Positions 22,108 to 48,421 of a stretch of 64,000 nucleotides of DNA are shown piece after piece. Position 1 is the stretch's first letter. The number at the start of each line of letters is the position of its first letter. The DNA comes from an uncultured Bacteroidota bacterium (lineage in GTDB: Bacteria; Bacteroidota; Bacteroidia; 2-12-FULL-35-15): positions 2,543 to 66,542 of the forward strand of contig CAINDA010000061.1 of NCBI GenBank assembly GCA_903847205.1, given 5' to 3'. Below the pieces are notes generated by a model. That model saw nothing but the letters and a program-made list of their open reading frames with translations, was not told the DNA's origin and did not search any database. The position numbers were made by a program, and so were the translations under genes.

Positions 22108-22232
22108 TTCACTCAATTATATAAACAATTCACGCAGCAGTATAAACAGTTCGCGCATCTGTATAAAACTTCACGGAGCTATGTAAACAGTTCGCGGAAT
22201 GATGTAAATACTTCACTCAATGATATAAACAC
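22108..22232. repeat. Degenerate tandem array, 6 units, 21-bp period (one unit 20 bp)
   Basis: ttcactcaattatataaacaa / ttcacgcagcagtataaacag / ttcgcgcatctgtataaaac / ttcacggagctatgtaaacag / ttcgcggaatgatgtaaatac / ttcactcaatgatataaacac. Confidence 0.85.
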
Positions 22233-35753: not shown

Positions 35754-35828
35754 GTTTAGAAATTTCGGGATTAGGATTAAAAGTAAAGAACCCCATTTCC
35801 TTAGAGTAAAGAAATGACTCAGGAAAGT

Positions 35829-36143
35829 GAGAAATGGCTCCTCACACGTGAGAAATCGTATCTGACACTTGAGAAATTGCATCTCACGATTAAGAAATAG
35901 CTCCACACACCAGAGAAATGGCATCTGACACTTGAGAAATCGCATCTCACTATTAAGAAATCGCATCTGACACTTAAGAAATCGCTCCTCTCACCTGAGA
36001 AATGGCATTTCACTATCGAGAAACCACATCTGACACATGAGAAATCGCATTTGACACTTGAGAAATCGCATCGGACTATCAAGAAATAGTTCCTTGCACT
36101 TGGGAAATCGGATCTGACAAATGAGAAATTACCTCCTCCTACT
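35829..36143. repeat. Degenerate tandem array, 15 units of exactly 21 bp, consensus RAGAAATCGCATCTSACACTT
   Basis: Units start at 35829, 35850, 35871 ... 36123 with no indels, e.g. gagaaatcgtatctgacactt, gagaaattgcatctcacgatt, aagaaatcgcatctgacactt, gagaaatcgcatttgacactt. Confidence 0.95.
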
Positions 36144-36561: not shown

Positions 36562-37623
36562 ATGAAAAAACTTTTACTCTCTGCACTTACGTTATCTGCT
36601 TATTTAACTGTTAATGCACAATGCACTGAATTATTTTTCTCAGAATACCTTGAAGGCGGCGGAGAAAACCATGCCATAGAAATTTACAACCCCACAGCAA
36701 ATACTGTTGACCTTAGTAAGTACGTGGTGAGAAGATATTCTGACGGACACTCGTATTACACAGAAACGTTGCACTTTACCGACAGTAACCGTGTGGGAAT
36801 GCATACCACCGCGTTTATCCCGCCTTATGGAACGTATGTTATTGTAAGCGGTTTCCTAATTCCTCAAGGAAGTCTGCCGGCATGCGATACTATTTTAACC
36901 AATAAAATACTGCATGGCAGCCTCAATGGTATGCTTGATTCTTGCTGCCATAACGGAACCAATGTTGAACAGGCTGGTATCATGGTTTATAATGGCGACG
37001 ATGCCCTTACCATCGAAAAACATAACCAGGATGGTACCTTCACCAAAGTTGATATTTTTGGCTGCATAGGTGAAAGGCCTACGAATTCTGCGGGAGGTAC
37101 AAGCCCTACCGGCGGCTGGGTGGCTGCACCGCCTTTTAATAATGGAGTAGGAGGAAATTACCTTTCAAGAAATTACAGCTTGCGGAGAAAGGCCTCCATT
37201 AAAGCTGGTGTAACAACTAATCCGCTTCCCGGCACATTCAATATATTAGCTGCTTACGATACTGTTGCTTCTAATAATTTCGGTAATCCCCCAGTGTATA
37301 ACGAAAATTACACAGATTTAGGCCACCATACCTGCGATTGCAATCCAGCTGGTATTGCCGAAATTAATGGGGTGCGTGTAAATGTTAATGTTTACCCCAA
37401 CCCTTCCAACGGACAATCTATTGCGATATCAGCCATGGAAATTATTGAAAATATAGAAATTGTAAACCTTTTGGGTCAGCCGATATTACCGGTTGTTGAA
37501 GAGCGTCATACTACATTCGTAAAATACAGTTATGGTTCTTTTACAAAAGGAATTTATTTCGCTAAGGTTACTTTTAAGGATAAAAGCTACCAAACTGCAG
37601 TTAAGCGCATAGTAATTGAATAG
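36562..37623 (+). CDS. T9SS-secreted lamin-tail-domain protein
   Basis: ELFFSEYLEGGGENHAIEIYNPT..VDLSKY, YNGDDAL, VDIFG.IG and SLRRKASI; CTD VYPNPS...KGIYF. Confidence 0.85.
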   Translation: MKKLLLSALTLSAYLTVNAQCTELFFSEYLEGGGENHAIEIYNPTANTVDLSKYVVRRYSDGHSYYTETLHFTDSNRVGMHTTAFIPPYGTYVIVSGFLIPQGSLPACDTILTNKILHGSLNGMLDSCCHNGTNVEQAGIMVYNGDDALTIEKHNQDGTFTKVDIFGCIGERPTNSAGGTSPTGGWVAAPPFNNGVGGNYLSRNYSLRRKASIKAGVTTNPLPGTFNILAAYDTVASNNFGNPPVYNENYTDLGHHTCDCNPAGIAEINGVRVNVNVYPNPSNGQSIAISAMEIIENIEIVNLLGQPILPVVEERHTTFVKYSYGSFTKGIYFAKVTFKDKSYQTAVKRIVIE

Positions 37624-41123: not shown

Positions 41124-42356
41124 TTGAAAACAAAATTACTCTTAGCAGCATCCCTGACTTTCAATCTTTGCCTTGAAACGCATAGTTCTTTCGCTCAATT
41201 CAGTTTTGTTCATATTTCCGACCTCCACGTTTCCAGTGTTGCTTCTTCAGTAAATGCATGTGACCTTCATGGTTTAAAGGCCCAGTGTTATTTGAAAGAA
41301 TTTGCTCAGATCAATCCTAAACCGGCTTTTGTGCTTGCCACAGGAGATATTTCAAATGTAGGAAACAGCAATCCTGGGATGTATAATGTGCTTACTCAGT
41401 TTTTATTCCCGTCAGCTGTTGTCAATCCAAGTCCTGGCGCTTATTTTATTGATTCGGCGCAGACGGTGCCAATTTATTTTACACCCGGCAACCATGATTA
41501 TTATACCACACTTTATCCTCCGGGCAGCCTCACTCAGTTAAATCATGTAAGCAATTATGCCCAATACATTGCACCAGATACTGATTATGCGGTTACAACA
41601 AACATCTCTGTTATTTTATTTGTGCGGTCGGGATACGATATACCTTATTGGAGTCAGCCAGACCCAATAACTCCTGCAGGAGCAGGGATTACGAATGCAC
41701 AATGCAGCTGGATCAGAAATCAGCTGAGCCAGAACAGCAGCAAAAGAAAGATTATTGTAATGCATCATCCCGCAGTAAACATTGCCGGTACAAACTGTGA
41801 TGGAACAGCTTATACAACCGAAACTATTTTAAGCCCTTCCGCGGGCACCTGGCTGGCTAATAGAACTGCATTTCTTAATATCTGCGATTCAAACCAGGTA
41901 GATGTGGTTCTGGCAGGGCATCAGCACCAAAACGTAGTTGCCGACAGGGCAGGAAATGTGATTAATGAAAATTGTACCACCTGCGGCACCCGCTATGTTC
42001 AAACGGGTGCGGCATTTAATGGCTGCTTCCGGGTTATTACTGTTGACTCATCATTTATTAATGTAAGTTCTCCATTACAAAGCTGTGCAGCCGTGGCAGG
42101 AGTGGACGAATTGAGCAATTCATTGAACATTACTGTTTTCCCAAATCCGTCCGGCGGAGAATTGAATTTAACTATGAGTCAATCGGGAAGCGTGCCCATG
42201 AAAATTTACAATGTACTTGGAGAATGCATTCAACAGAATACTGTTACAGCTTCAAACTTTAGAATTGATTTAAGTTCTCAGCCGAACGGGGTTTATTTTA
42301 TGCACCTGCAAACTGAATACGGCAGAGTTATTAAAAAAATATTCATTAATAAGTGA
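41124..42356 (+). CDS. T9SS-secreted calcineurin-like metallophosphoesterase
   Basis: HISDLH, ATGDI, PGNHD, MHHP and LAGHQH motifs; CTD VFPNPS...NGVYF. Confidence 0.9.
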   Translation: MKTKLLLAASLTFNLCLETHSSFAQFSFVHISDLHVSSVASSVNACDLHGLKAQCYLKEFAQINPKPAFVLATGDISNVGNSNPGMYNVLTQFLFPSAVVNPSPGAYFIDSAQTVPIYFTPGNHDYYTTLYPPGSLTQLNHVSNYAQYIAPDTDYAVTTNISVILFVRSGYDIPYWSQPDPITPAGAGITNAQCSWIRNQLSQNSSKRKIIVMHHPAVNIAGTNCDGTAYTTETILSPSAGTWLANRTAFLNICDSNQVDVVLAGHQHQNVVADRAGNVINENCTTCGTRYVQTGAAFNGCFRVITVDSSFINVSSPLQSCAAVAGVDELSNSLNITVFPNPSGGELNLTMSQSGSVPMKIYNVLGECIQQNTVTASNFRIDLSSQPNGVYFMHLQTEYGRVIKKIFINK

Positions 42357-42484
42357 CCTGTTTATTTTTAGATAATCAGCCGGGGCGCAAACATAGTTGA
42401 CGGATATTAAAAATTAAAGAATACATTAGATTTAATAAATAATAAGCAATAGTAAAAACCAATAGTAAACAACAAATAAAACAA

Positions 42485-44740
42485 ATGAAAACCAAATTAC
42501 TTACACTAACGGCAGCAGCATGTTTTGCGATTCAGCTGAATGCCCAAACAATCGCAACGGAAAGGGCTGCAGCAGTAGGCAGTACAGTAACAATTAAAGG
42601 CATTGTGCTCAACGGCTCTGAATTAGGAAATATAAGATATGTGCAGGATGCTACAGGAGGTATTTCTCTTTATGGCACCAATATGTCAACTGTTAACAGA
42701 GGCGACTCCGTTAATTCAGTTGGAACCCTTACCAGTTATAGTAATTTGTTGGAAGTTTCTCCGGTTACTACTGTAGGTGTTATATCATCCGCACACGCAC
42801 TTCCTACACCTGCACTCATCACTCCAAATCAAATGGGCGAAACTTATGAAGGGGAGTTGATAAAGCTTAACGGCTGTACTTTTGCTTTGGGCGGAGGTAC
42901 TTTCACCGCTAATACTTCTTATACCTTCACCAGCGGAGGTCAGACAGGAACAGTGTTTGTTTCAAACACTAACCTTTTGATTGCCGGAACAATCATTCCG
43001 AGCACTCCGGTTAATTTAGTCGGAATTATGTCTCAGCACTGCACAACCCCTGCAACAGGCTGTACAACAGGTTACCAAATGCTGTTAAGAGACCCTAATG
43101 ATATCCTTAATACTGCTTCTATATATTTAACTGCTCAGCCTTCGCCGGCAAATATTGCAGCAACAAGCATTGACATTAACTGGACTACAAACATTGCCGG
43201 TTCAGGAATTTCGTATATTAAATACGGTAAAACACCGGCTTTAGAATTAGGTACTCTTACAGCTACCAATTCAACAGTTAACCACACTGCTACTATTACA
43301 GGTGCAACTGCAGCAACTATTTATTATGCACGTGTATATTCAATTAACCTGCCTGATACTGCAAGTTCTGCTGTAAAAGTATTTTGTACTAAATCTAACT
43401 CAACAGGTACTATTAAAGCCTTTTTCGACCGCAGTGTTAATCTTGCTGTTTCAAGCGGACCCAGCAATAACGCTTCATACTTAAGCAACGGCACTATTGC
43501 AGATACTATTGCTGCATATATTAACCGCGCTCATGCAACATTAGATATTGCAATTTATGACTGGGACAATGCAACAGGAGGGGCTAAAATAACTACGGCA
43601 GTAAATGCTGCAGCCACCAGAGGCGTTAAAGTAAGAGTTGTTTATGACGGATCTACAACACAATCTGGCTCAGCGGGATTAATTGCAGCGGTTAAAAAAG
43701 TAGCAAGTCCGCAGGGGGTAAGCTACACCATTATGCATAATAAATTTATTATTATTGATGCGAATTCATCCAACCCTAATCTTCCTTTCGTTTGGACAGG
43801 TTCAACTAACTGGACAAGCAGCCAATTAGCAACTGATGCCAACAACGCAATTGTTTTTCAGGATCAAAGTATGGCACGCGGATATAAATTAGAATTTGAC
43901 GAAATGTGGGGAGATACCAGCCAGACATCAAGTGCTAATACTACACTTGGTAAATTCGGGCAGTTTAAAGCAGATAATACTCCTCATGAGTATATGGTAG
44001 GTTCAAAGAGAGTTGAATCATATTTCAGCCCTTCTGACGGAACTACAACACATATAATCGCAACTATCGGAACAGCTAATTCTGATTTTGAATTTGGTTC
44101 GATGTTAATTACCCGCTCTGATATTGCAAACAAAATTGCAAGCCAGACAACAACAATCGGCGTTGGTAATTCAAAAGGAATTGTAGATGACACAGCTGCT
44201 GCAAGTTCACAATGGTATATTATGCATAATGTGATGGCTGCCAATGTTATAATAAGCCAATTTTCCTGGATATTCCATCATAAATACCTAATTGTAGATC
44301 AGTCTAACACAGCTTCTGACCCAACAGTATTAACAGGTTCTCATAACTGGTCAACTGCAGGTGAAACTAAAAATGACGAGAACACCGTTATTGTTCATGA
44401 TGCAGCCATTGCGAATCAGTATTACCAGGAGTTTTCTCAGCGCTGGATTGATGAAACCACTACCGGAATTAATACTTATAATTACGAAAATTTGAATGCA
44501 GTAATTTATCCTAACCCAAACAATGGTTCGTTTATGTTAAATTATACTGCTAAACAAAATGAAAAAGTAAGTGTAAAATTATATGACCTTATCGGCCATT
44601 TAGTTTATGATAATGAATTAAAAGTAAACAGCGGTTTTAACCCGATTGAAATGAATATACCAAACCTGAATAAAGGAATCTATTTATTCGAAATGGTAAC
44701 AGAAAACGGAAGACAGACAAATAAGCTGGTGATTCAATAA
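42485..44740 (+). CDS. T9SS-secreted phospholipase D/nuclease superfamily protein (OB-fold N-terminus, FN3-like domain, two HKD motifs)
   Basis: YVQDATGGISLY..RGDSV (OB-fold), YEGELIKL, FN3 WTTN..YG, MHNKFIIID...WTGSTNWT and HHKYLIVD...TGSHNWS; CTD IYPNPNNG. Confidence 0.9.
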   Translation: MKTKLLTLTAAACFAIQLNAQTIATERAAAVGSTVTIKGIVLNGSELGNIRYVQDATGGISLYGTNMSTVNRGDSVNSVGTLTSYSNLLEVSPVTTVGVISSAHALPTPALITPNQMGETYEGELIKLNGCTFALGGGTFTANTSYTFTSGGQTGTVFVSNTNLLIAGTIIPSTPVNLVGIMSQHCTTPATGCTTGYQMLLRDPNDILNTASIYLTAQPSPANIAATSIDINWTTNIAGSGISYIKYGKTPALELGTLTATNSTVNHTATITGATAATIYYARVYSINLPDTASSAVKVFCTKSNSTGTIKAFFDRSVNLAVSSGPSNNASYLSNGTIADTIAAYINRAHATLDIAIYDWDNATGGAKITTAVNAAATRGVKVRVVYDGSTTQSGSAGLIAAVKKVASPQGVSYTIMHNKFIIIDANSSNPNLPFVWTGSTNWTSSQLATDANNAIVFQDQSMARGYKLEFDEMWGDTSQTSSANTTLGKFGQFKADNTPHEYMVGSKRVESYFSPSDGTTTHIIATIGTANSDFEFGSMLITRSDIANKIASQTTTIGVGNSKGIVDDTAAASSQWYIMHNVMAANVIISQFSWIFHHKYLIVDQSNTASDPTVLTGSHNWSTAGETKNDENTVIVHDAAIANQYYQEFSQRWIDETTTGINTYNYENLNAVIYPNPNNGSFMLNYTAKQNEKVSVKLYDLIGHLVYDNELKVNSGFNPIEMNIPNLNKGIYLFEMVTENGRQTNKLVIQ

Positions 44741-44758: not shown

Positions 44759-44796
44759 AAAAAGCCGGCAGTCCTGAAGGACGGCCGGCTTTTTTT
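44759..44796. terminator. Bidirectional intrinsic terminator
   Basis: aaaaagccggcagtcc-tgaa-ggacggccggcttttt between convergent genes. Confidence 0.85.
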
Positions 44797-45751
44797 ATTT
44801 TGTTTCATCTCTTAATGAAAGCGGTGTTTTTCCATCGGTTATAATAACCTTGGTATTCGGCGAGGCCGACAGCGCTTTTAATGCATCAATTGATTTGTAT
44901 TGTATCAGCAGAGGTGTAAGTGAGGGGGCAATAAGTTCCTGCGCCTTTTTAGCGGCTTCCGCTTCCATGATTATCCGCTCCGATTCCTTTTTTTGTTTTT
45001 CTATTGCAAAATCAACCTGCATGCGCTCCTGCTCAATGGCTGCCGATTTTGACCGCTTTTCTTTTTCAAAGTTAAATTCCATTTCCAGTCTCTGTTTTTC
45101 TATTGATGCCTGTGTTTTTATTTTCTCAATCTGATTATCTACCTCCTGCTGTTTAGCTTCCTGCTCTAGGAACACTTTCTTTTCAATGGCGCGGTCAATG
45201 GTATCGGGCACATCAATATCGCGCACCAATACTTGGTCCATCACAAAACCGTAACGCCCAATATCGGTATTCATATTATCGAAAATGGCTTTCTCCAATG
45301 AATCGCGCTGCACCATCAAATCCATGGCCTTATAGTTTAAACAGGTTTCCCTGGCTGTCGCTTCAAAGTTGTTTTTTACGATGGCGTTCTCATAATTTAA
45401 GCCCAGGGTTTGATAAATATCATGTATTGCATCGGGTTTGATGTGATAAAGAAGAGTAATGTCTGCTTTAGCCTCCAAACCTTCCTTTGTGGGCAGAGTC
45501 ATTTTTATAGAAAGCTCTTTGATACGGATATTAAACTTAACATAGTGCATTCCTATGCCTGAATAGTGCCAGCCTTGAGCATAAACCCCGGATTTCAGTT
45601 TTCCGTGAACAACCTTTAGTCCAAGTTCACCCGGCCGGATGGTGGAGCAGCTCTCAATCGTAAGTAATGGGATAGTGAATGCAAAAAAGATTAGTACTGC
45701 TCCGGCAGAATCTTTGATTCTTTTTCGGATAAAGGGTAACGCTGTTTCCAT
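44795..45751 (-). CDS. SPFH/prohibitin family protein (start placed at METALPF; the ORF track extends to 45811)
   Basis: TIRPGELGL, LPTKEGL, VLVRDIDVP..IDRAIEKK, a coiled coil and SPNTKVII. Confidence 0.88.
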   Translation of the reverse strand: METALPFIRKRIKDSAGAVLIFFAFTIPLLTIESCSTIRPGELGLKVVHGKLKSGVYAQGWHYSGIGMHYVKFNIRIKELSIKMTLPTKEGLEAKADITLLYHIKPDAIHDIYQTLGLNYENAIVKNNFEATARETCLNYKAMDLMVQRDSLEKAIFDNMNTDIGRYGFVMDQVLVRDIDVPDTIDRAIEKKVFLEQEAKQQEVDNQIEKIKTQASIEKQRLEMEFNFEKEKRSKSAAIEQERMQVDFAIEKQKKESERIIMEAEAAKKAQELIAPSLTPLLIQYKSIDALKALSASPNTKVIITDGKTPLSLRDETK

Positions 45752-45794
45752 GGTTTTTAAGAATTTAAGGAAGATGAAATTAATTGTATTAAAA

Positions 45795-46214
45795 TCATCC
45801 CTCTTAATCAAAAAACCGGAGGGAGAATTTTATAAACTGATACCATCAATCCCTAAGCCGTTGTTCTTAAATAAAAAAAGCTTAACAAATATTAACGCTT
45901 TAATTGGTTTTATAATGCATCCAAATGGTTTTGGAAAGTTTCCGGATGGTTTTTTTATAAAACCATTTGGCCGAATTCATAAACCAGCGGGCACAGCTGT
46001 TTTATCAACTGTTTTTATAATAAAGCCATTTGGTTTTATTATAGATACGGCTGTATTTATAATAAATCCGATTGGTTTAAAAGCAGAGCCGGTTGTTTTT
46101 ATTTAATATCCGATTGGTTAAATAATAAATCCCGTTGTTTTTATTTAGAATCCAAATGGTTTTATAAAGAAACCATCAGGCATTATATTAAAACCAATCA
46201 TTCGCAGGGCTTTG
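45795..46214. repeat. Degenerate 21-bp-period tandem array of palindromic units (consensus CCRWTTGGTTTTATAATAAAW), about 20 units, core 45900-46214
   Basis: In-phase units at 45921, 45942, 45963 ... 46194, e.g. ccaaatggttttataaagaaa, ccatttggttttattatagat, ccgattggttaaataataaat. Weaker in-phase units at 45816 and 45858. Confidence 0.9.
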
Positions 46215-46215
46215 G

Positions 46216-46536
46216 TGTTCAAAAAAGCTTCCGTGTTGATCAGTTATGAGTTTTTGAGGATCATTTTTGAATGAATGATAATCCTCTTACTGATTCTGCT
46301 TTTCAGAATCAGTGGGATGATTAACGGGCTTATTAAATTTTCGGCACAAAGTATGTTTATGTTCATTGAATTCAAGAATTGATTCATCAGCAAAACAATA
46401 AAAAGAAACATTATTTGTTTTCCTATAAGCATCGGCTATTAGCGGCGCATAAAAAATTCAAGGGACATGATAATAAACCTACACAGTATAAAAACAATAA
46501 ATAATTTATTAATCAGCAGCGGATAGTTTTTGTTCA
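46216..46536. repeat. Highly degenerate second 21-bp-period tract (TNATCA-like motif in phase)
   Basis: tgttca 46216, tgatca 46237, ggatca 46258, taatcc 46279, ttttca 46300, tcatca 46384, taagca 46426, tgataa 46468, taatca 46510 and tgttca 46531, all at multiples of 21. Confidence 0.55.
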
Positions 46537-46594
46537 AAGGTGTATCCGGAATAGTTTAGATTAAAACATTTTCGCTGCGCTAAAAACAAAAGCT

Positions 46595-47218
46595 ATGAAA
46601 AATTTAATTAAAACACGGTTCAGTCATTATTCTGCTGTTAAATTATGGGCATTGAACGACAAGGTTATTAAGTGCATGACAGATAACCCTGATTTTGCTG
46701 GTTGCCAGGACGCCCTTATTCCTCTTAAAAAGGCAGGGGGTGAATTAAGTGGTGCCATTTCAGATGCAAAAGGCGGAGGAACCAAGGAAACGGAGATTCT
46801 GAAAAATAAAAAAGCAGCGATTATTCCGCTTCTTGATAAACTTGCATCTGATGTTGAATTCATCTGCAAAGGAGACCGGGGGAAAGCTATTGGTTCGGGC
46901 TTCGATATGACAAAAGAAAAGGCCGAAAAAAAGGGAAAAACCGAAAAGGTACTAGGTGTGGAAGCCGAGGCGAATAGAACATCGGGCATTATTGATGTAA
47001 GCTGGGCCGAGGATAAAAACAGGGTAATGTATCTTATCGAAAAGGCTGTTGTTATTGAAGGTGCCATTCCTCAATTTGTTACAGCCGGCTTCACCACCTG
47101 CATTAAATTCAAAGTAAAGGGGCTTACCCCCGGTTTGATTTATCAATTCAGAATAATTTCAATTAACAATCTTGGATTAAGTGATCCCAGCGATATTGCA
47201 ACAGCAATGAGTTTGTAA
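46595..47218 (+). CDS. Cytoplasmic protein with N-terminal helical domain and C-terminal fibronectin type III domain
   Basis: No signal peptide. Helical region MTDNPDF...LDKLASDVE...SGF; FN3 IDVSW...YLIE...VKGLTPGLIYQFRIISIN..G.SDPSD. Confidence 0.8.
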   Translation: MKNLIKTRFSHYSAVKLWALNDKVIKCMTDNPDFAGCQDALIPLKKAGGELSGAISDAKGGGTKETEILKNKKAAIIPLLDKLASDVEFICKGDRGKAIGSGFDMTKEKAEKKGKTEKVLGVEAEANRTSGIIDVSWAEDKNRVMYLIEKAVVIEGAIPQFVTAGFTTCIKFKVKGLTPGLIYQFRIISINNLGLSDPSDIATAMSL

Positions 47219-47269
47219 AACTATTCCAATAATTATACAAGAGTGATTTTTTCAGCCGAATAATTTACT

Positions 47270-48421
47270 CTACTCTTTAATAAACTTCTGCACTGCTTTA
47301 GAATCACTGGAAGTAAGCACAACAAAATAAATCCCTTTCGGCAGCATCGAAACATCGTTGTCTGCATTGTTTTCCAATGAGGCAATTGTTTCGCCCAAAA
47401 CATTTTTCAGTTCAATACTTTTTATTTTTTCTTTCGGGACAGAACTGGAGAAGTATATAAAATCATGCGAAGGGTTTGGATAAACAGAAATAACATTTTG
47501 GCTGCCTGAAATTTCTTTGATGCCGTTCGGGTTCATATTCCAGCCTATATCTTTTAAAATTCCTATACATATAGGCCCCGGGTTATGCAGTGAATAGCCG
47601 GTGGAGCCATTCGGAGTCATAAGCTCATTCGGATTTCCATCGGGATAAGTTGCTTCATTCAAATGTGTGATGCTGGAGCCCAAAGAAAAAGCTCCGGGAG
47701 CATTTATTCTTGGCTTTACTCCTGCGTTTGCTGCCATTGCATTAGGGCCGTTGAAATAAACGGCGTTGCTGATAAACTTTGAACCTAGCGTTACTGAAGG
47801 ATTTGGAATGGTATCTAATGTCTGCCCGGTATTAGTAACCAAATAGCGGTCGAAAGCCGAAGGCATTGTATCCAGATTCGGCCATGGGTAAGAAGTAGTG
47901 AGCGGTGCAAAGTCAGATGCAAGAAGCATCCCGAATGAACCGGAAGTACCCGTCCTTTTTGCAAGGCTTATAAAGCCGAGCCCGTGACAGAGCTCATGTA
48001 TTGCAATTGTTGCAAAATCGTACTGGCCTGCAGGTACTGTTCCTGTTGAATCGAAATACCACGCAACTGTACTGTTGAGATACATTTCAATATCCACTTC
48101 GCCGGTATTCAGTTCATGCCCTGCAATAGCATTCGCAAGCGCTGTGGAATACCATGTATCAGTGAGCGGGGCGCCTGCAAAATTCTTTCTTCCATTCGGA
48201 AAAGTAATGCCTAATAAACCCGATGGAAGAGGTGTATAATGTACGAGAACTTTAATTGGAACAGTTGACACAAGAGTGTTCGCCCATACGCCGGCAGCGT
48301 ATTGATAAGCGGCCTGTGCCTGTGCTGTAAAGCCGGTATTGGTAATAGTGAAAGAAGCTGTCTGCGCATTTGCGGCGATTGAAAAACAAAAAATAAACAG
48401 GGACAGGTATAATTTCTTCAT
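47270..48421 (-). CDS. T9SS-secreted zinc-dependent metalloprotease-like protein
   Basis: YDFATIAIHELCHGLGF (HExxH), GSSITHLNE, LMTP and ILKDIGW; CTD VYPNPS...KGIYF...KFIKE. Confidence 0.85.
   Translation of the reverse strand: MKKLYLSLFIFCFSIAANAQTASFTITNTGFTAQAQAAYQYAAGVWANTLVSTVPIKVLVHYTPLPSGLLGITFPNGRKNFAGAPLTDTWYSTALANAIAGHELNTGEVDIEMYLNSTVAWYFDSTGTVPAGQYDFATIAIHELCHGLGFISLAKRTGTSGSFGMLLASDFAPLTTSYPWPNLDTMPSAFDRYLVTNTGQTLDTIPNPSVTLGSKFISNAVYFNGPNAMAANAGVKPRINAPGAFSLGSSITHLNEATYPDGNPNELMTPNGSTGYSLHNPGPICIGILKDIGWNMNPNGIKEISGSQNVISVYPNPSHDFIYFSSSVPKEKIKSIELKNVLGETIASLENNADNDVSMLPKGIYFVVLTSSDSKAVQKFIKE

What the first reader, a model, noticed from the sequence alone, without database searches (positions are those of the whole stretch)
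45795..47218. About 750 bp of 21-bp-phased DNA (two motifs, palindromic units) leading into a cytoplasmic helical+FN3 gene: best candidate for an undescribed system
Seen: almost the whole spacer between the divergent SPFH and FN3 genes keeps a 21-bp period. Part A (45795-46214) is built of dyad units ATAAAACC-N4-GGTTTTAT, so both strands translate as PxGFIIK heptads, and both of those frames contain stops. It can also fold as a long hairpin: 45942-45970 matches the reverse complement of 46152-46180 at 27/29, and there is a local 14-bp stem centred near 46050. Part B (46216-46536) has a TNATCA-like motif in 21-bp phase and ends about 60 bp before the ATG. The gene encodes a Lys-rich helical domain plus FN3 with no export signal, which is atypical for bacterial FN3 proteins. 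Inference: array plus protein form a unit, for example a protein polymerising on phased sites or binding a repetitive structured RNA.
Basis: partly seen in the sequence, partly recalled or inferred. Interest (0 to 1): 0.75.

Follow-up and report, generated by a model that had tools for sequence, protein, structure and literature searches.

The report
Gene-linked 21-bp DNA repeat arrays
A small protein gene of unknown function sits beside a stretch of DNA repeated every 21 bases, and this gene-plus-repeat pairing recurs dozens of times in this and related Bacteroidota genomes with different repeat sequences each time, which points to an undescribed protein-and-DNA-array system.

Summary
The 21-bp array is real but shorter than claimed. 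The core is 45904-46197 (14 units). A decayed block runs to 46330. Nothing from 46331 to 46536 is periodic.

The 207-aa protein (three-helix bundle plus FN3) belongs to a family of about 26 genes in this genome. 23 of 26 lie within 510 bp of a 20-21-bp array, and every array has an unrelated unit. In other genomes, 17 of 23 homologous loci carry an array too.

The array is one of 133 intergenic arrays of this kind in the genome. A second, unrelated 330-aa family always carries true 42-bp arrays. Three congeners without the family gave one weak array in 890 kb. Two genomes rich in the family gave 36 in 800 kb.

Paralogues that are 82-88% identical have unrelated units, so simple sequence-specific pairing is in doubt.

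Best reading (about 0.4): a double-stranded DNA platform on which the adjacent protein assembles in helical phase. Binding is not shown. No RNA data were available.

This scan noted a similar gene-plus-21-bp-array module before in other genomes (e1-4866716, e1-1201623). I found no description in print.

The parts
45904..46197 (.). Core tandem array: 14 units of 21 bp (consensus near TTGGTTTTATAATAAATCCGA). Units alternate between two variants, giving a 42-bp super-period. Dyad symmetry spans unit junctions.
   Evidence: Lag-21 identity 0.553, z 9.6. 10 copies in register. TRF period 42 and 21. Stacked units.
46198..46330 (.). Decayed second block of about 6 units in the same 21-bp register, with a recurrent (GA)TCA at the unit start.
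   Evidence: Lag-21 identity 0.438, z 4.0, p 0.004 corrected over lags 4-60. Stack.
46331..46451 (.). A+T-rich spacer with no significant periodicity. It is only weakly alignable among the four closest paralogous loci.
   Evidence: 46331-46536: z 1.8, corrected p 0.87. Alignment A3.
46452..46594 (+). Conserved leader, presumably promoter and 5' UTR, shared with three paralogous loci. It starts at a CATGATnAT motif about 128 bp before the ATG and holds an inverted repeat GCAGCG...CGCTGC.
   Evidence: blastn 73-78% identity to C45:1185-1309, C52:76509-76650 and C62:99120-99223. Alignment A3. Motif positions. No Rfam family reached its gathering score; only two chance microRNA matches far below theirs.
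46595..47218 (+). Gene for a 207-aa protein: N-terminal three-helix bundle (residues 14-99), linker, C-terminal FN3 domain (122-205). It is a member of a fast-evolving family of about 26 genes in this genome.
   Evidence: AF2 pLDDT 90.4. FN3 match Z 15.2, rmsd 1.4 A over 88 residues to 3f7q_A. Foldseek E 4.5e-8. Pfam fn3 20.1 bits, below the cut-off of 25. Paralogues. dN/dS 0.18-0.30 in six paralogue pairs.

Best explanation
The array is a cis-acting element of double-stranded DNA. The protein encoded next to it is a non-enzymatic three-helix bundle plus FN3 domain. It assembles on the array with one subunit or pair per repeat unit. The unit is 21 bp, two turns of the helix, so all units face the same side. 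The result would be a phased nucleoprotein stretch beside the protein's own promoter, which most likely represses or insulates that promoter. Sister arrays elsewhere may be bound as well.

Shown:
- The gene and the array are adjacent.
- The period is fixed while the unit sequence is free.
- The period depends on the gene family.
- Arrays and families occur in the same genomes.
- The units are enriched in dyad symmetry and show no strand bias.

Inferred:
- That the protein binds the array at all.
- The stoichiometry.
- That the fast-evolving helical domain reads the DNA.
- Any regulatory consequence.
For: 1. Adjacency. 23 of 26 family genes in the own genome lie within 510 bp of an array, 18 with the array on the 5' side and 5 on the 3' side. 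About 3% is expected from the array coverage (my arithmetic). In other genomes 17 of 23 strong-match loci have an array within 1.5 kb, 16 of them on the 5' side. Among 5 weak FN3-only matches, 0 have one.
2. Family-specific period.
   - FN3-family arrays have lag-20/21 identity of at least 0.5 in 21 of 25 cases in the own genome.
   - In other genomes 11 of 16 arrays (from 15 loci; arrays of at least 80 bp within 700 bp of the gene, so not the same set as the 17 of 23 loci of point 1) are 21-type and the rest 42 or 63.
   - The unrelated 330-aa family has true 42-bp arrays, with lag-21 at background. This holds for 8 of 8 arrays in the own genome and at 8 of 10 loci elsewhere; the other 2 loci have none.
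   - Fisher p 0.002, but the genomes are kin and not independent.
3. Genome-level co-occurrence.
   - Samples of three family-free congeners gave 0 arrays in 318 kb, 0 in 384 kb and 1 short 41-bp array in 189 kb.
   - Two family-rich genomes gave 20 and 16 arrays in 400 kb each.
   - The 330-aa family is found in 7 of 41 genomes, all of them FN3-family carriers with high copy numbers.
4. DNA-level features.
   - 118 of 133 arrays have period 21, 10 have 20 and 5 have 22.
   - 32 of 77 consensus units hold a perfect inverted repeat of at least 5 bp, against 9.1 in shuffles (maximum 20 in 200 shuffles).
   - Folding energy is equal on both strands.
5. Sister arrays. In all 7 unit families that include a family-adjacent array, exactly one member is family-adjacent. 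9 of those 11 pairs share no flank homology.
6. The genes are under purifying selection (omega 0.18-0.30). The helical half evolves faster than the FN3 half in 4 of the 5 pairs that could be computed.
Against: - Paralogues that are 88% and 82% identical have units matching at only 11/21 and 10/21 positions, which is the background level of 10.4. Over 231 pairs, protein identity does not predict unit similarity (Spearman -0.01).
- Paralogue homology covers about -130 to +70 around the coding sequence and stops before the array.
- Only 24 of 147 arrays touch a family gene. Many arrays lie beside ordinary genes such as ndk, efp, tig, yebC and porV.
- No known DNA-binding domain was found in Pfam, NCBIfam or PHROGs.
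- pI is mixed: 14 of 24 members are above 9, and 10 lie between 6.1 and 7.8.
- The helical domain was never searched on its own for fold relatives.
- No binding, expression or footprint data exist.
Confidence: 0.4

Rival explanations
1. The arrays are by-products of how the gene cassettes move or of local replication slippage. Examples are stacked target-site duplications or footprints of fixed length left by repeated insertion and excision. Under this reading the period reflects an enzyme's cutting stagger and the unit is whatever sequence lay at the site.
For: - The period is fixed while unit sequences are unrelated.
- Paralogue homology ends just short of the array.
- Closely related genes have unrelated arrays.
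- Family copy number ranges from 0 to 31 matches within one genus, which looks like bursts.
- Arrays are found only in sampled genomes that carry the families.
Against: - No recombinase is linked to the loci.
- Flanking inverted repeats are no better than chance: mean 7.89 against 7.93.
- The same unit occurs at loci with unrelated flanks, which local duplications would not give.
- Two gene families would need two mechanisms with steps of exactly 21 and 42 bp.
- Units are enriched in dyad symmetry.
Confidence: 0.2
2. The arrays are generic upstream control or insulator elements read by a host factor that senses helical phase, not sequence, such as a nucleoid-associated protein. Under this reading the small gene families are merely the commonest genes placed under such control.
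For: - Arrays favour 5' regions: 31 lie in divergent, 47 in tandem and 8 in convergent gaps, against a background of 486:2688:486.
- The median distance to a gene start is 218 bp.
- Many arrays precede ordinary genes.
- Unit sequence is irrelevant to protein relatedness.
Against: - The period is specific to the gene family, 21 against 42 bp.
- One FN3 subfamily has its array after the stop codon in 5 of 5 genes.
- There is no A-tract phasing at 10.5 bp, so intrinsic curvature is not supported: harmonic 2 of A/T content has z -4.0.
- Sampled congeners without the families lack arrays, so any such factor would have to be gained and lost together with the families.
Confidence: 0.15
3. The array is transcribed into a repetitive, hairpin-rich RNA that the protein coats or that acts on its own.
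For: - Arrays fold more stably than shuffles: -24.2 against -16.8 kcal/mol per 100 nt, Wilcoxon p 6e-5.
- The units are palindromic.
- The long inverted repeat lies in the window's array.
Against: - There is no strand preference. The sense strand is more stable in 12 of 27 arrays, p 0.17, and there is no base skew on the gene's strand.
- The array lies upstream of the conserved leader.
- No Rfam family reached its gathering score.
- Only 32 of 77 units are clearly palindromic.
Confidence: 0.1
4. The array is the remnant of a gene for a heptad-repeat protein, since 21 bp equals 7 codons.
For: - 21 is a multiple of three.
- Both strands of the window's array read as KPxGFII heptads.
- 101 of 147 arrays are open in at least one of six frames.
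Against: - Stops occur in both heptad frames here.
- 10 arrays have period 20 and 5 have period 22.
- The units are palindromic.
- Array ORFs have no start context or non-repeat flanks.
- An open frame is expected by chance for any 21-bp repeat.
Confidence: 0.03

Closest known systems
Plasmid partition centromeres with their binding proteins. sopC/SopB of plasmid F has 12 direct repeats of 43 bp, each with a 16-bp inverted repeat (PMC3177203; I saw only the start of the abstract in the search listing). parC/ParR of R1 and pSK41, with 10-11-bp and 20-bp repeats, is recalled and was not checked.
   Same: - A tandem array of direct repeats with dyad cores.
- A period near an integral number of helical turns (20-21 or 42-43 bp).
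- A position next to the gene of the presumed binder.
- Array sequence that differs between systems.
   Different: - No ParA/ParM/TubZ partner gene lies beside the locus.
- No HTH or ribbon-helix-helix domain was detected.
- There are 133 arrays spread over chromosomal contigs, not one per replicon.
- Near-identical proteins have unrelated units.
Operators with 21-bp phased half-sites: LytTR regulators (AgrA, ComE) and AraC I1-I2.
   Same: A 21-bp centre-to-centre spacing upstream of a promoter.
   Different: - These operators have two or three sites abutting the -35 region. Here there are 6-25 units, ending 30-520 bp from the start codon.
- No LytTR or AraC gene is adjacent to the window's array, and none was seen among the 60 array-side genes scanned.
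- Units are often palindromes, not direct half-sites.
REP/BIME arrays of enterobacteria (recalled)
   Same: Hundreds of intergenic arrays of palindromic units per genome.
   Different: - REPs share one sequence family per genome and alternate in orientation.
- Here 41 of 77 well-defined units are singletons, the copies are head-to-tail, and the period is rigid.
Earlier notes of this scan: e1-4866716 (21-bp arrays upstream of an unnamed family of small Bacteroidota genes) and e1-1201623 (unknown gene plus 22-base repeats beside integron sites)
   Same: The same kind of gene-plus-array module in Bacteroidota. Its authors also called it undescribed.
   Different: - These are other genomes, and a sequence look-up with the 207-aa protein found no shared stretch, so identity of the gene family is not shown.
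- The link to attC sites was not tested here.

Membership tests
Fibronectin type III domain (Pfam PF00041) | Seven-stranded beta-sandwich of FN3 topology | tested here: met
   AF2 model residues 114-207. VIA-align Z 15.2, rmsd 1.4 A, 88 residues aligned to 3f7q_A. Foldseek E 4.5e-8 to 7jgu.
Fibronectin type III domain (Pfam PF00041) | Sequence score at or above Pfam's gathering cut-off | tested here: inconclusive
   The window protein scores 20.1 bits against a cut-off of 25. 7 of 24 family members match at E <= 0.01, best 1.2e-7.
Partition centromere plus centromere-binding protein (ParABS, ParMRC, TubZRC) | Tandem repeats with dyad cores next to the binder's gene | tested here: met
Partition centromere plus centromere-binding protein (ParABS, ParMRC, TubZRC) | Partner NTPase gene (ParA, ParM or TubZ) in the same locus | tested here: not met
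   The neighbours are an SPFH gene and a T9SS-sorted protein. Among 60 array-side genes, one ParA-like ATPase was found, on contig C10 only.
Partition centromere plus centromere-binding protein (ParABS, ParMRC, TubZRC) | Binder with a ParB-type HTH or ribbon-helix-helix fold | tested here: inconclusive
   No such domain in Pfam, NCBIfam or PHROGs. The model shows a three-helix bundle. The helical domain was not searched alone for fold relatives.
CRISPR array | Repeats separated by unique spacers of similar length | tested here: not met
   The units are head-to-tail with no spacers.
REP/BIME | One conserved palindromic unit family across the genome | tested here: not met
   41 of 77 units are singletons, and the largest unit family has 5 members.
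LytTR- or AraC-type phased operator | A cognate LytTR or AraC regulator, and two or three sites abutting the promoter | tested here: not met
   There is no such gene beside the window's array and none among the 60 array-side genes scanned. There are 6-25 units per array.
Integron gene cassette (lead from earlier notes) | An attC recombination site at the 3' end of the cassette | not tested
   No attC model was run. After the stop codons of three of the four closest paralogues (C45, C62, C52) only a terminator-like hairpin is seen; the window's own copy has only a weak one. Flanking inverted repeats around arrays are at chance level.

The most novel reading that the evidence does not exclude
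This is a bacterial analogue of satellite DNA with its binder. Families of non-enzymatic proteins built from a helical bundle plus a beta-sandwich coat DNA with a fixed pitch, 21 or 42 bp depending on the family. Because replication or repair slips in register with the bound protein, the proteins imprint that pitch on whatever sequence lies beside their gene. Over a hundred arrays per genome would arise this way, and the system would spread between genomes as a self-propagating pair of protein and repeat.
Probability: 0.12. Interest if true: 0.92.

Novelty: categorically new. Interest (0 to 1): 0.8.

Why it matters
If the reading holds, free-living Bacteroidota carry a widespread, multi-copy class of chromosomal protein-plus-DNA-array modules. 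The arrays alone make up about 0.75% of this genome, and the modules match no described regulatory, partition, defence or mobile system.

The rule is a rigid period of two or four helical turns with a free unit sequence, where the period is set by the neighbouring gene family. That gives a directly testable handle on how proteins and repeat geometry co-evolve in bacteria.

There are also practical consequences. The arrays break assemblies, since several contigs of this genome end in them. They also spawn spurious repeat ORFs in annotation.

Tried and rejected
- **RNA evidence.** The look-up of sequencing runs listed no RNA holder for 45300-47500, so expression could not be examined and read laying was not used.
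- **Self-association.** Complex prediction with two copies of the protein gave 'no answer', score 0.03 against a mark of 0.42. This is not evidence either way.
- **Whole-library profile search.** The search with A1 was swamped by giant multi-FN3 proteins: 42,175 hits, and the 150 best, the only ones listed, are all long proteins matched through the FN3 part. It said nothing about the helical domain.
- **Word-indexed search.** It found only 3 proteins, including the query itself.
- **The search for related loci.** It failed on the wide alignment because no conserved stretch was available. With a narrow alignment it found no relative in genome contigs.
- **Fold searches.** PDB by Foldseek, BFVD and PDB by VIA-align returned only FN3 matches.
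- **Insertion boundaries.** These could not be mapped. The SPFH neighbour has only one weak orthologue (40% identity) among 40 congeners.
- **Intrinsic curvature.** Rejected, because there is no 10.5-bp A/T phasing.
- **Invertible segment or MITE.** Rejected, because flanking inverted repeats are at chance level.
- **Rfam.** Only two chance microRNA matches, far below their gathering scores, in the window region. Nothing in seven paralogous loci.
- **Literature.** Searches (21-bp or intergenic tandem repeats, Bacteroidetes/Bacteroidota, helical turns, fibronectin type III) returned nothing that describes such arrays. This covers only the open-access library that was searched.
- **A sigma-54-like GGCAC-N5-ATGT** seen by eye in two leaders was not followed up.
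Full report
**1. What is at the coordinates**

The gap between the SPFH gene and the 207-aa gene is about 840 bp. The SPFH gene is on the minus strand and most likely starts at the ATG at 45751. The 207-aa gene occupies 46595-47218 on the plus strand.

The core array:
- 45904-46197 is a head-to-tail array of 14 units of 21 bp. Lag-21 identity is 0.553, z 9.6 against 1000 dinucleotide-preserving shuffles.
- 10 copies lie in register.
- Units alternate between two variants, which gives the 42-bp period that TRF reports.
- The dyad ATAAAnCC-N4-GGTTTTAT spans unit junctions.
- Both strands read as KPxGFII heptads with stops.

The flanking blocks:
- A second, decayed block at 46198-46330 keeps the same register (z 4.0, p 0.004 corrected over lags).
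- 46331-46536 is not periodic (corrected p 0.87).
- The phased tract is therefore about 430 bp, not 750 bp.
- The last 143 bp before the ATG are a leader conserved at 73-78% nucleotide identity with three other loci of the genome.
- No Rfam family reached its gathering score.

**2. The protein**

- AlphaFold2, run with an alignment of 24 paralogues, gives mean pLDDT 90.4. The model has a three-helix bundle (helices 14-28, 32-58, 63-91), a linker and an FN3 sandwich at 122-205.
- The FN3 part matches solved FN3 domains at Z 15.2, rmsd 1.4 A over 88 residues and Foldseek E 4.5e-8.
- No search said anything about the helical part.
- Pfam gives only a sub-threshold fn3 hit. NCBIfam gives one weak chance-level hit in one of 24 members, and PHROGs gives only weak hits through the FN3 part.
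- The ESM Atlas neighbours are 'hypothetical protein' clusters, mostly from Bacteroidota.
- No column of the family alignment is invariant, so an enzyme is unlikely.
- Six paralogue pairs give dN/dS 0.18-0.30, so these are real genes under purifying selection. The helical half changes faster than the FN3 half in 4 of the 5 pairs that could be computed.

**3.

Own genome (5.49 Mb in 72 contigs):
- A profile of the family finds 26 open pieces that carry the helical domain.
- 23 of these lie within 510 bp of a tandem array of period 20-22 bp or a multiple. 18 have the array on the 5' side. 5, all from one subfamily, have it just after the stop codon.
- The unit sequences are unrelated from locus to locus.

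Other genomes:
- In 40 related genomes the family is patchy, with 0 to 31 matches within one genus.
- 17 of 23 strong-match loci from other genomes have such an array within 1.5 kb, 16 of them on the 5' side. Among 5 weak FN3-only matches, 0 have one.
- The prediction 'recurrent lag-21 peak with unrelated unit sequences' is therefore met.

**4. The wider picture**

Array census:
- TRF finds 555 repeat rows in the genome. 97 have period 21, 81 have 42, 51 have 63 and 24 have 84.
- Merged, these give 147 arrays totalling 41.5 kb. 14 lie inside long ORFs and are ordinary coding repeats: collagen-like proteins and a 21-residue coiled-coil repeat in sensor kinases.
- Of the other 133, the best period is 21 in 118, 20 in 10 and 22 in 5.

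Array properties:
- G+C equals the genome's. There is no strand skew and no 10.5-bp A/T phasing.
- 32 of 77 well-defined units contain a perfect inverted repeat of at least 5 bp, against 9.1 in shuffles.

Array positions:
- Arrays favour 5' regions: 31 divergent, 47 tandem and 8 convergent gaps, against a background of 486:2688:486.
- In tandem gaps they sit a median 104 bp after the upstream gene and 198 bp before the downstream start.
- Only 24 arrays touch an FN3-family gene.

Neighbouring genes (60 genes that have an array upstream):
- 27 have no Pfam family at E <= 1e-4.
- These include further multi-copy families: a 330-aa family and a 215-aa family.
- Two further genes (312 and 318 aa) give only sub-threshold CarboxypepD_reg matches in their C-terminal part; their N-terminal part looks helical by eye but was not modelled.
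- The rest are ordinary genes such as ndk, efp, tig, yebC and porV.
- These counts rest on a crude ORF call (ATG starts only, at least 80 aa).

**5. Three results that bear on mechanism**

*(a) The period depends on the gene family.*
- Arrays beside the 330-aa family have a true 42-bp period, with lag-21 identity at background (0.16-0.32). This holds for 8 of 8 arrays in this genome and at 8 of 10 loci elsewhere; the other 2 loci have none.
- FN3-family arrays are 20/21-type in 21 of 25 cases here. In other genomes 11 of the 16 arrays of at least 80 bp within 700 bp of the gene are 21-type and the rest 42 or 63.
- The low-confidence model of the 330-aa protein (pLDDT 65, built from four sequences) shows about 230 helical residues followed by a beta-sandwich.

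*(b) Arrays and families occur in the same genomes.*
- Samples of three family-free congeners held 0, 0 and 1 array in 318, 384 and 189 kb. The single one is a 41-bp repeat of 2.6 copies.
- Two family-rich genomes held 20 and 16 arrays in 400 kb each.
- A genome with a single family match held 0 in 141 kb.
- The contigs sampled from the rich genomes were picked because family hits had shown them to be long. Even so, the arrays far outnumber the family genes on them.
- The 330-aa family occurs in 7 of 41 genomes. All are FN3-family carriers with high copy numbers.

*(c) Unit sequence is uncoupled from protein relatedness.*
- Paralogues that are 88% and 82% identical have units matching at 11 and 10 of 21 positions. 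Background is 10.4. Spearman is -0.01 over 231 pairs.
- Their nucleotide homology runs from about -130 to +70 around the coding sequence and ends before the array.
- Yet the same unit can recur at two to five loci. 22 of 31 such pairs share no flank homology.
- In all 7 unit families that include a family-adjacent array, exactly one member is family-adjacent.

**6. Reading**

Several features together point to recognition of double-stranded DNA by something tied to the neighbouring gene family. The period is an integral number of helical turns. It is family-specific. The units are enriched in dyads. Folding is symmetric between strands: the sense strand is more stable in 12 of 27 arrays. Arrays and families co-occur at genome level.

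The simplest candidate is the encoded protein itself, assembling in phase on the array. The main difficulty is result (c). Either a few residues of the faster-evolving helical domain set specificity, or the protein reads pitch and not sequence.

Rivals:
- Arrays as scars of cassette movement or slippage.
- Arrays as generic phase-sensing control elements.
- An RNA scaffold.
- A decayed heptad gene.

The first two remain open. The RNA scaffold has no support. The heptad gene is contradicted by the 20- and 22-bp periods, the stops and the palindromes.

**7. Comparison with what is known**

The nearest described things are plasmid centromeres with their binding proteins. One example is sopC/SopB, with 12 repeats of 43 bp each holding a 16-bp inverted repeat (PMC3177203; I saw only the start of the abstract in a search listing). 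Operators with 21-bp phased sites are also close (recalled).

Defining features of these systems are missing here:
- There is no partner NTPase.
- No known DNA-binding fold was detected.
- There is not one site per replicon.
- There are not two or three sites at a promoter.

The arrays are not CRISPR, REP/BIME, or an invertible or MITE-like element. Four literature searches found no description. This covers only the open-access library that was searched.

Earlier notes of this scan describe similar modules in other genomes. My sequence look-up did not connect them to this family. Their suggested link to integron attC sites was not tested here.

**8. Verdict**

The gene-array unit is supported. 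It belongs to a genome-wide system of several gene families, apparently undescribed, whose mechanism is still inferred.

Noticed in passing
window 35828-36129: A second 21-bp array in the window: unit near TGAGAAATCGCATCTGACACT, about 14 units. It lies 433 bp upstream of a T9SS-sorted lamin-tail-domain protein gene (window 36562-37623). No FN3-family gene lies beside it.
   Followed up: partly
window 22120-22231: A third, weaker array (consensus score 0.63). It lies between a metallo-beta-lactamase-fold gene and a 263-aa gene with no Pfam family.
   Followed up: no
own genome, e.g. G000:C56:1594-1834 with gene C56:1930-2922; loci L083, L096, L104, L108: A 330-aa family with no Pfam match and 12 matches in this genome. 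It always sits 42-209 bp downstream of a true 42-bp array. It is found only in genomes rich in the FN3 family.
   Followed up: yes
G000:C14:25919-26566, C24:149421-150068, C67:46684-47343; C20:6673-7611, C33:40234-41190, C34:71659-72561: Two further array-linked gene sets: a 215-aa family (no Pfam family), and a group of three roughly 300-aa genes, two of which give a sub-threshold CarboxypepD_reg-like match in the C-terminal part (the third gives none). Their arrays are of the 21-bp type. Whether they share the helical fold of the FN3 family was not tested.
   Followed up: partly
G000 contig ends: C23:1-162, C54:1-447, C24:1-239; also C15:102-446, C27:102-392 and C8:777-1219, which lie near contig starts: Three contigs begin inside very homogeneous arrays (up to 99% matches) and three more have one within about 100-800 bp of the start, so these repeats probably break the assembly. 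The true array count and lengths are probably higher.
   Followed up: no
G000:C52:76653-77272 (L003): The closest paralogue on C52 is split by an in-frame TAA into two pieces. It keeps its leader and its 21-bp array, so it is probably a recent pseudogene. Further family fragments lie beside arrays at C22:69964-70275 and C50:13652-13816.
   Followed up: partly
window 46452-46594 and paralogous leaders (L001, L002, L003; a second leader type in L004-L007): Two leader types of about 120-130 nt both start with a CATGATnAT motif. Each holds a long-range inverted repeat (GCAGCG...CGCTGC, or CAGGTGT...ACACCGTG). They are more conserved than the proteins they precede. No Rfam match. They may be a structured 5' UTR or a protein-binding site.
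   Followed up: partly
window 41124-44740 and 47270-48421: Three genes for T9SS-sorted secreted proteins flank the locus: a metallophosphoesterase, a PLD-like protein and a protein with no Pfam family apart from its sorting domain. The divergent SPFH gene (44795-45751) has only one weak orthologue among 40 congeners, so this neighbourhood is variable.
   Followed up: partly
G000:C56:110902-113034, 123770-128821, 143099-147022: Sensor-kinase-like genes with long runs of a 21-residue (63-bp) coiled-coil repeat, ELIIANKELAFQNEEKEKRAA. These are genuine coding repeats and are unrelated to the intergenic arrays.
   Followed up: no
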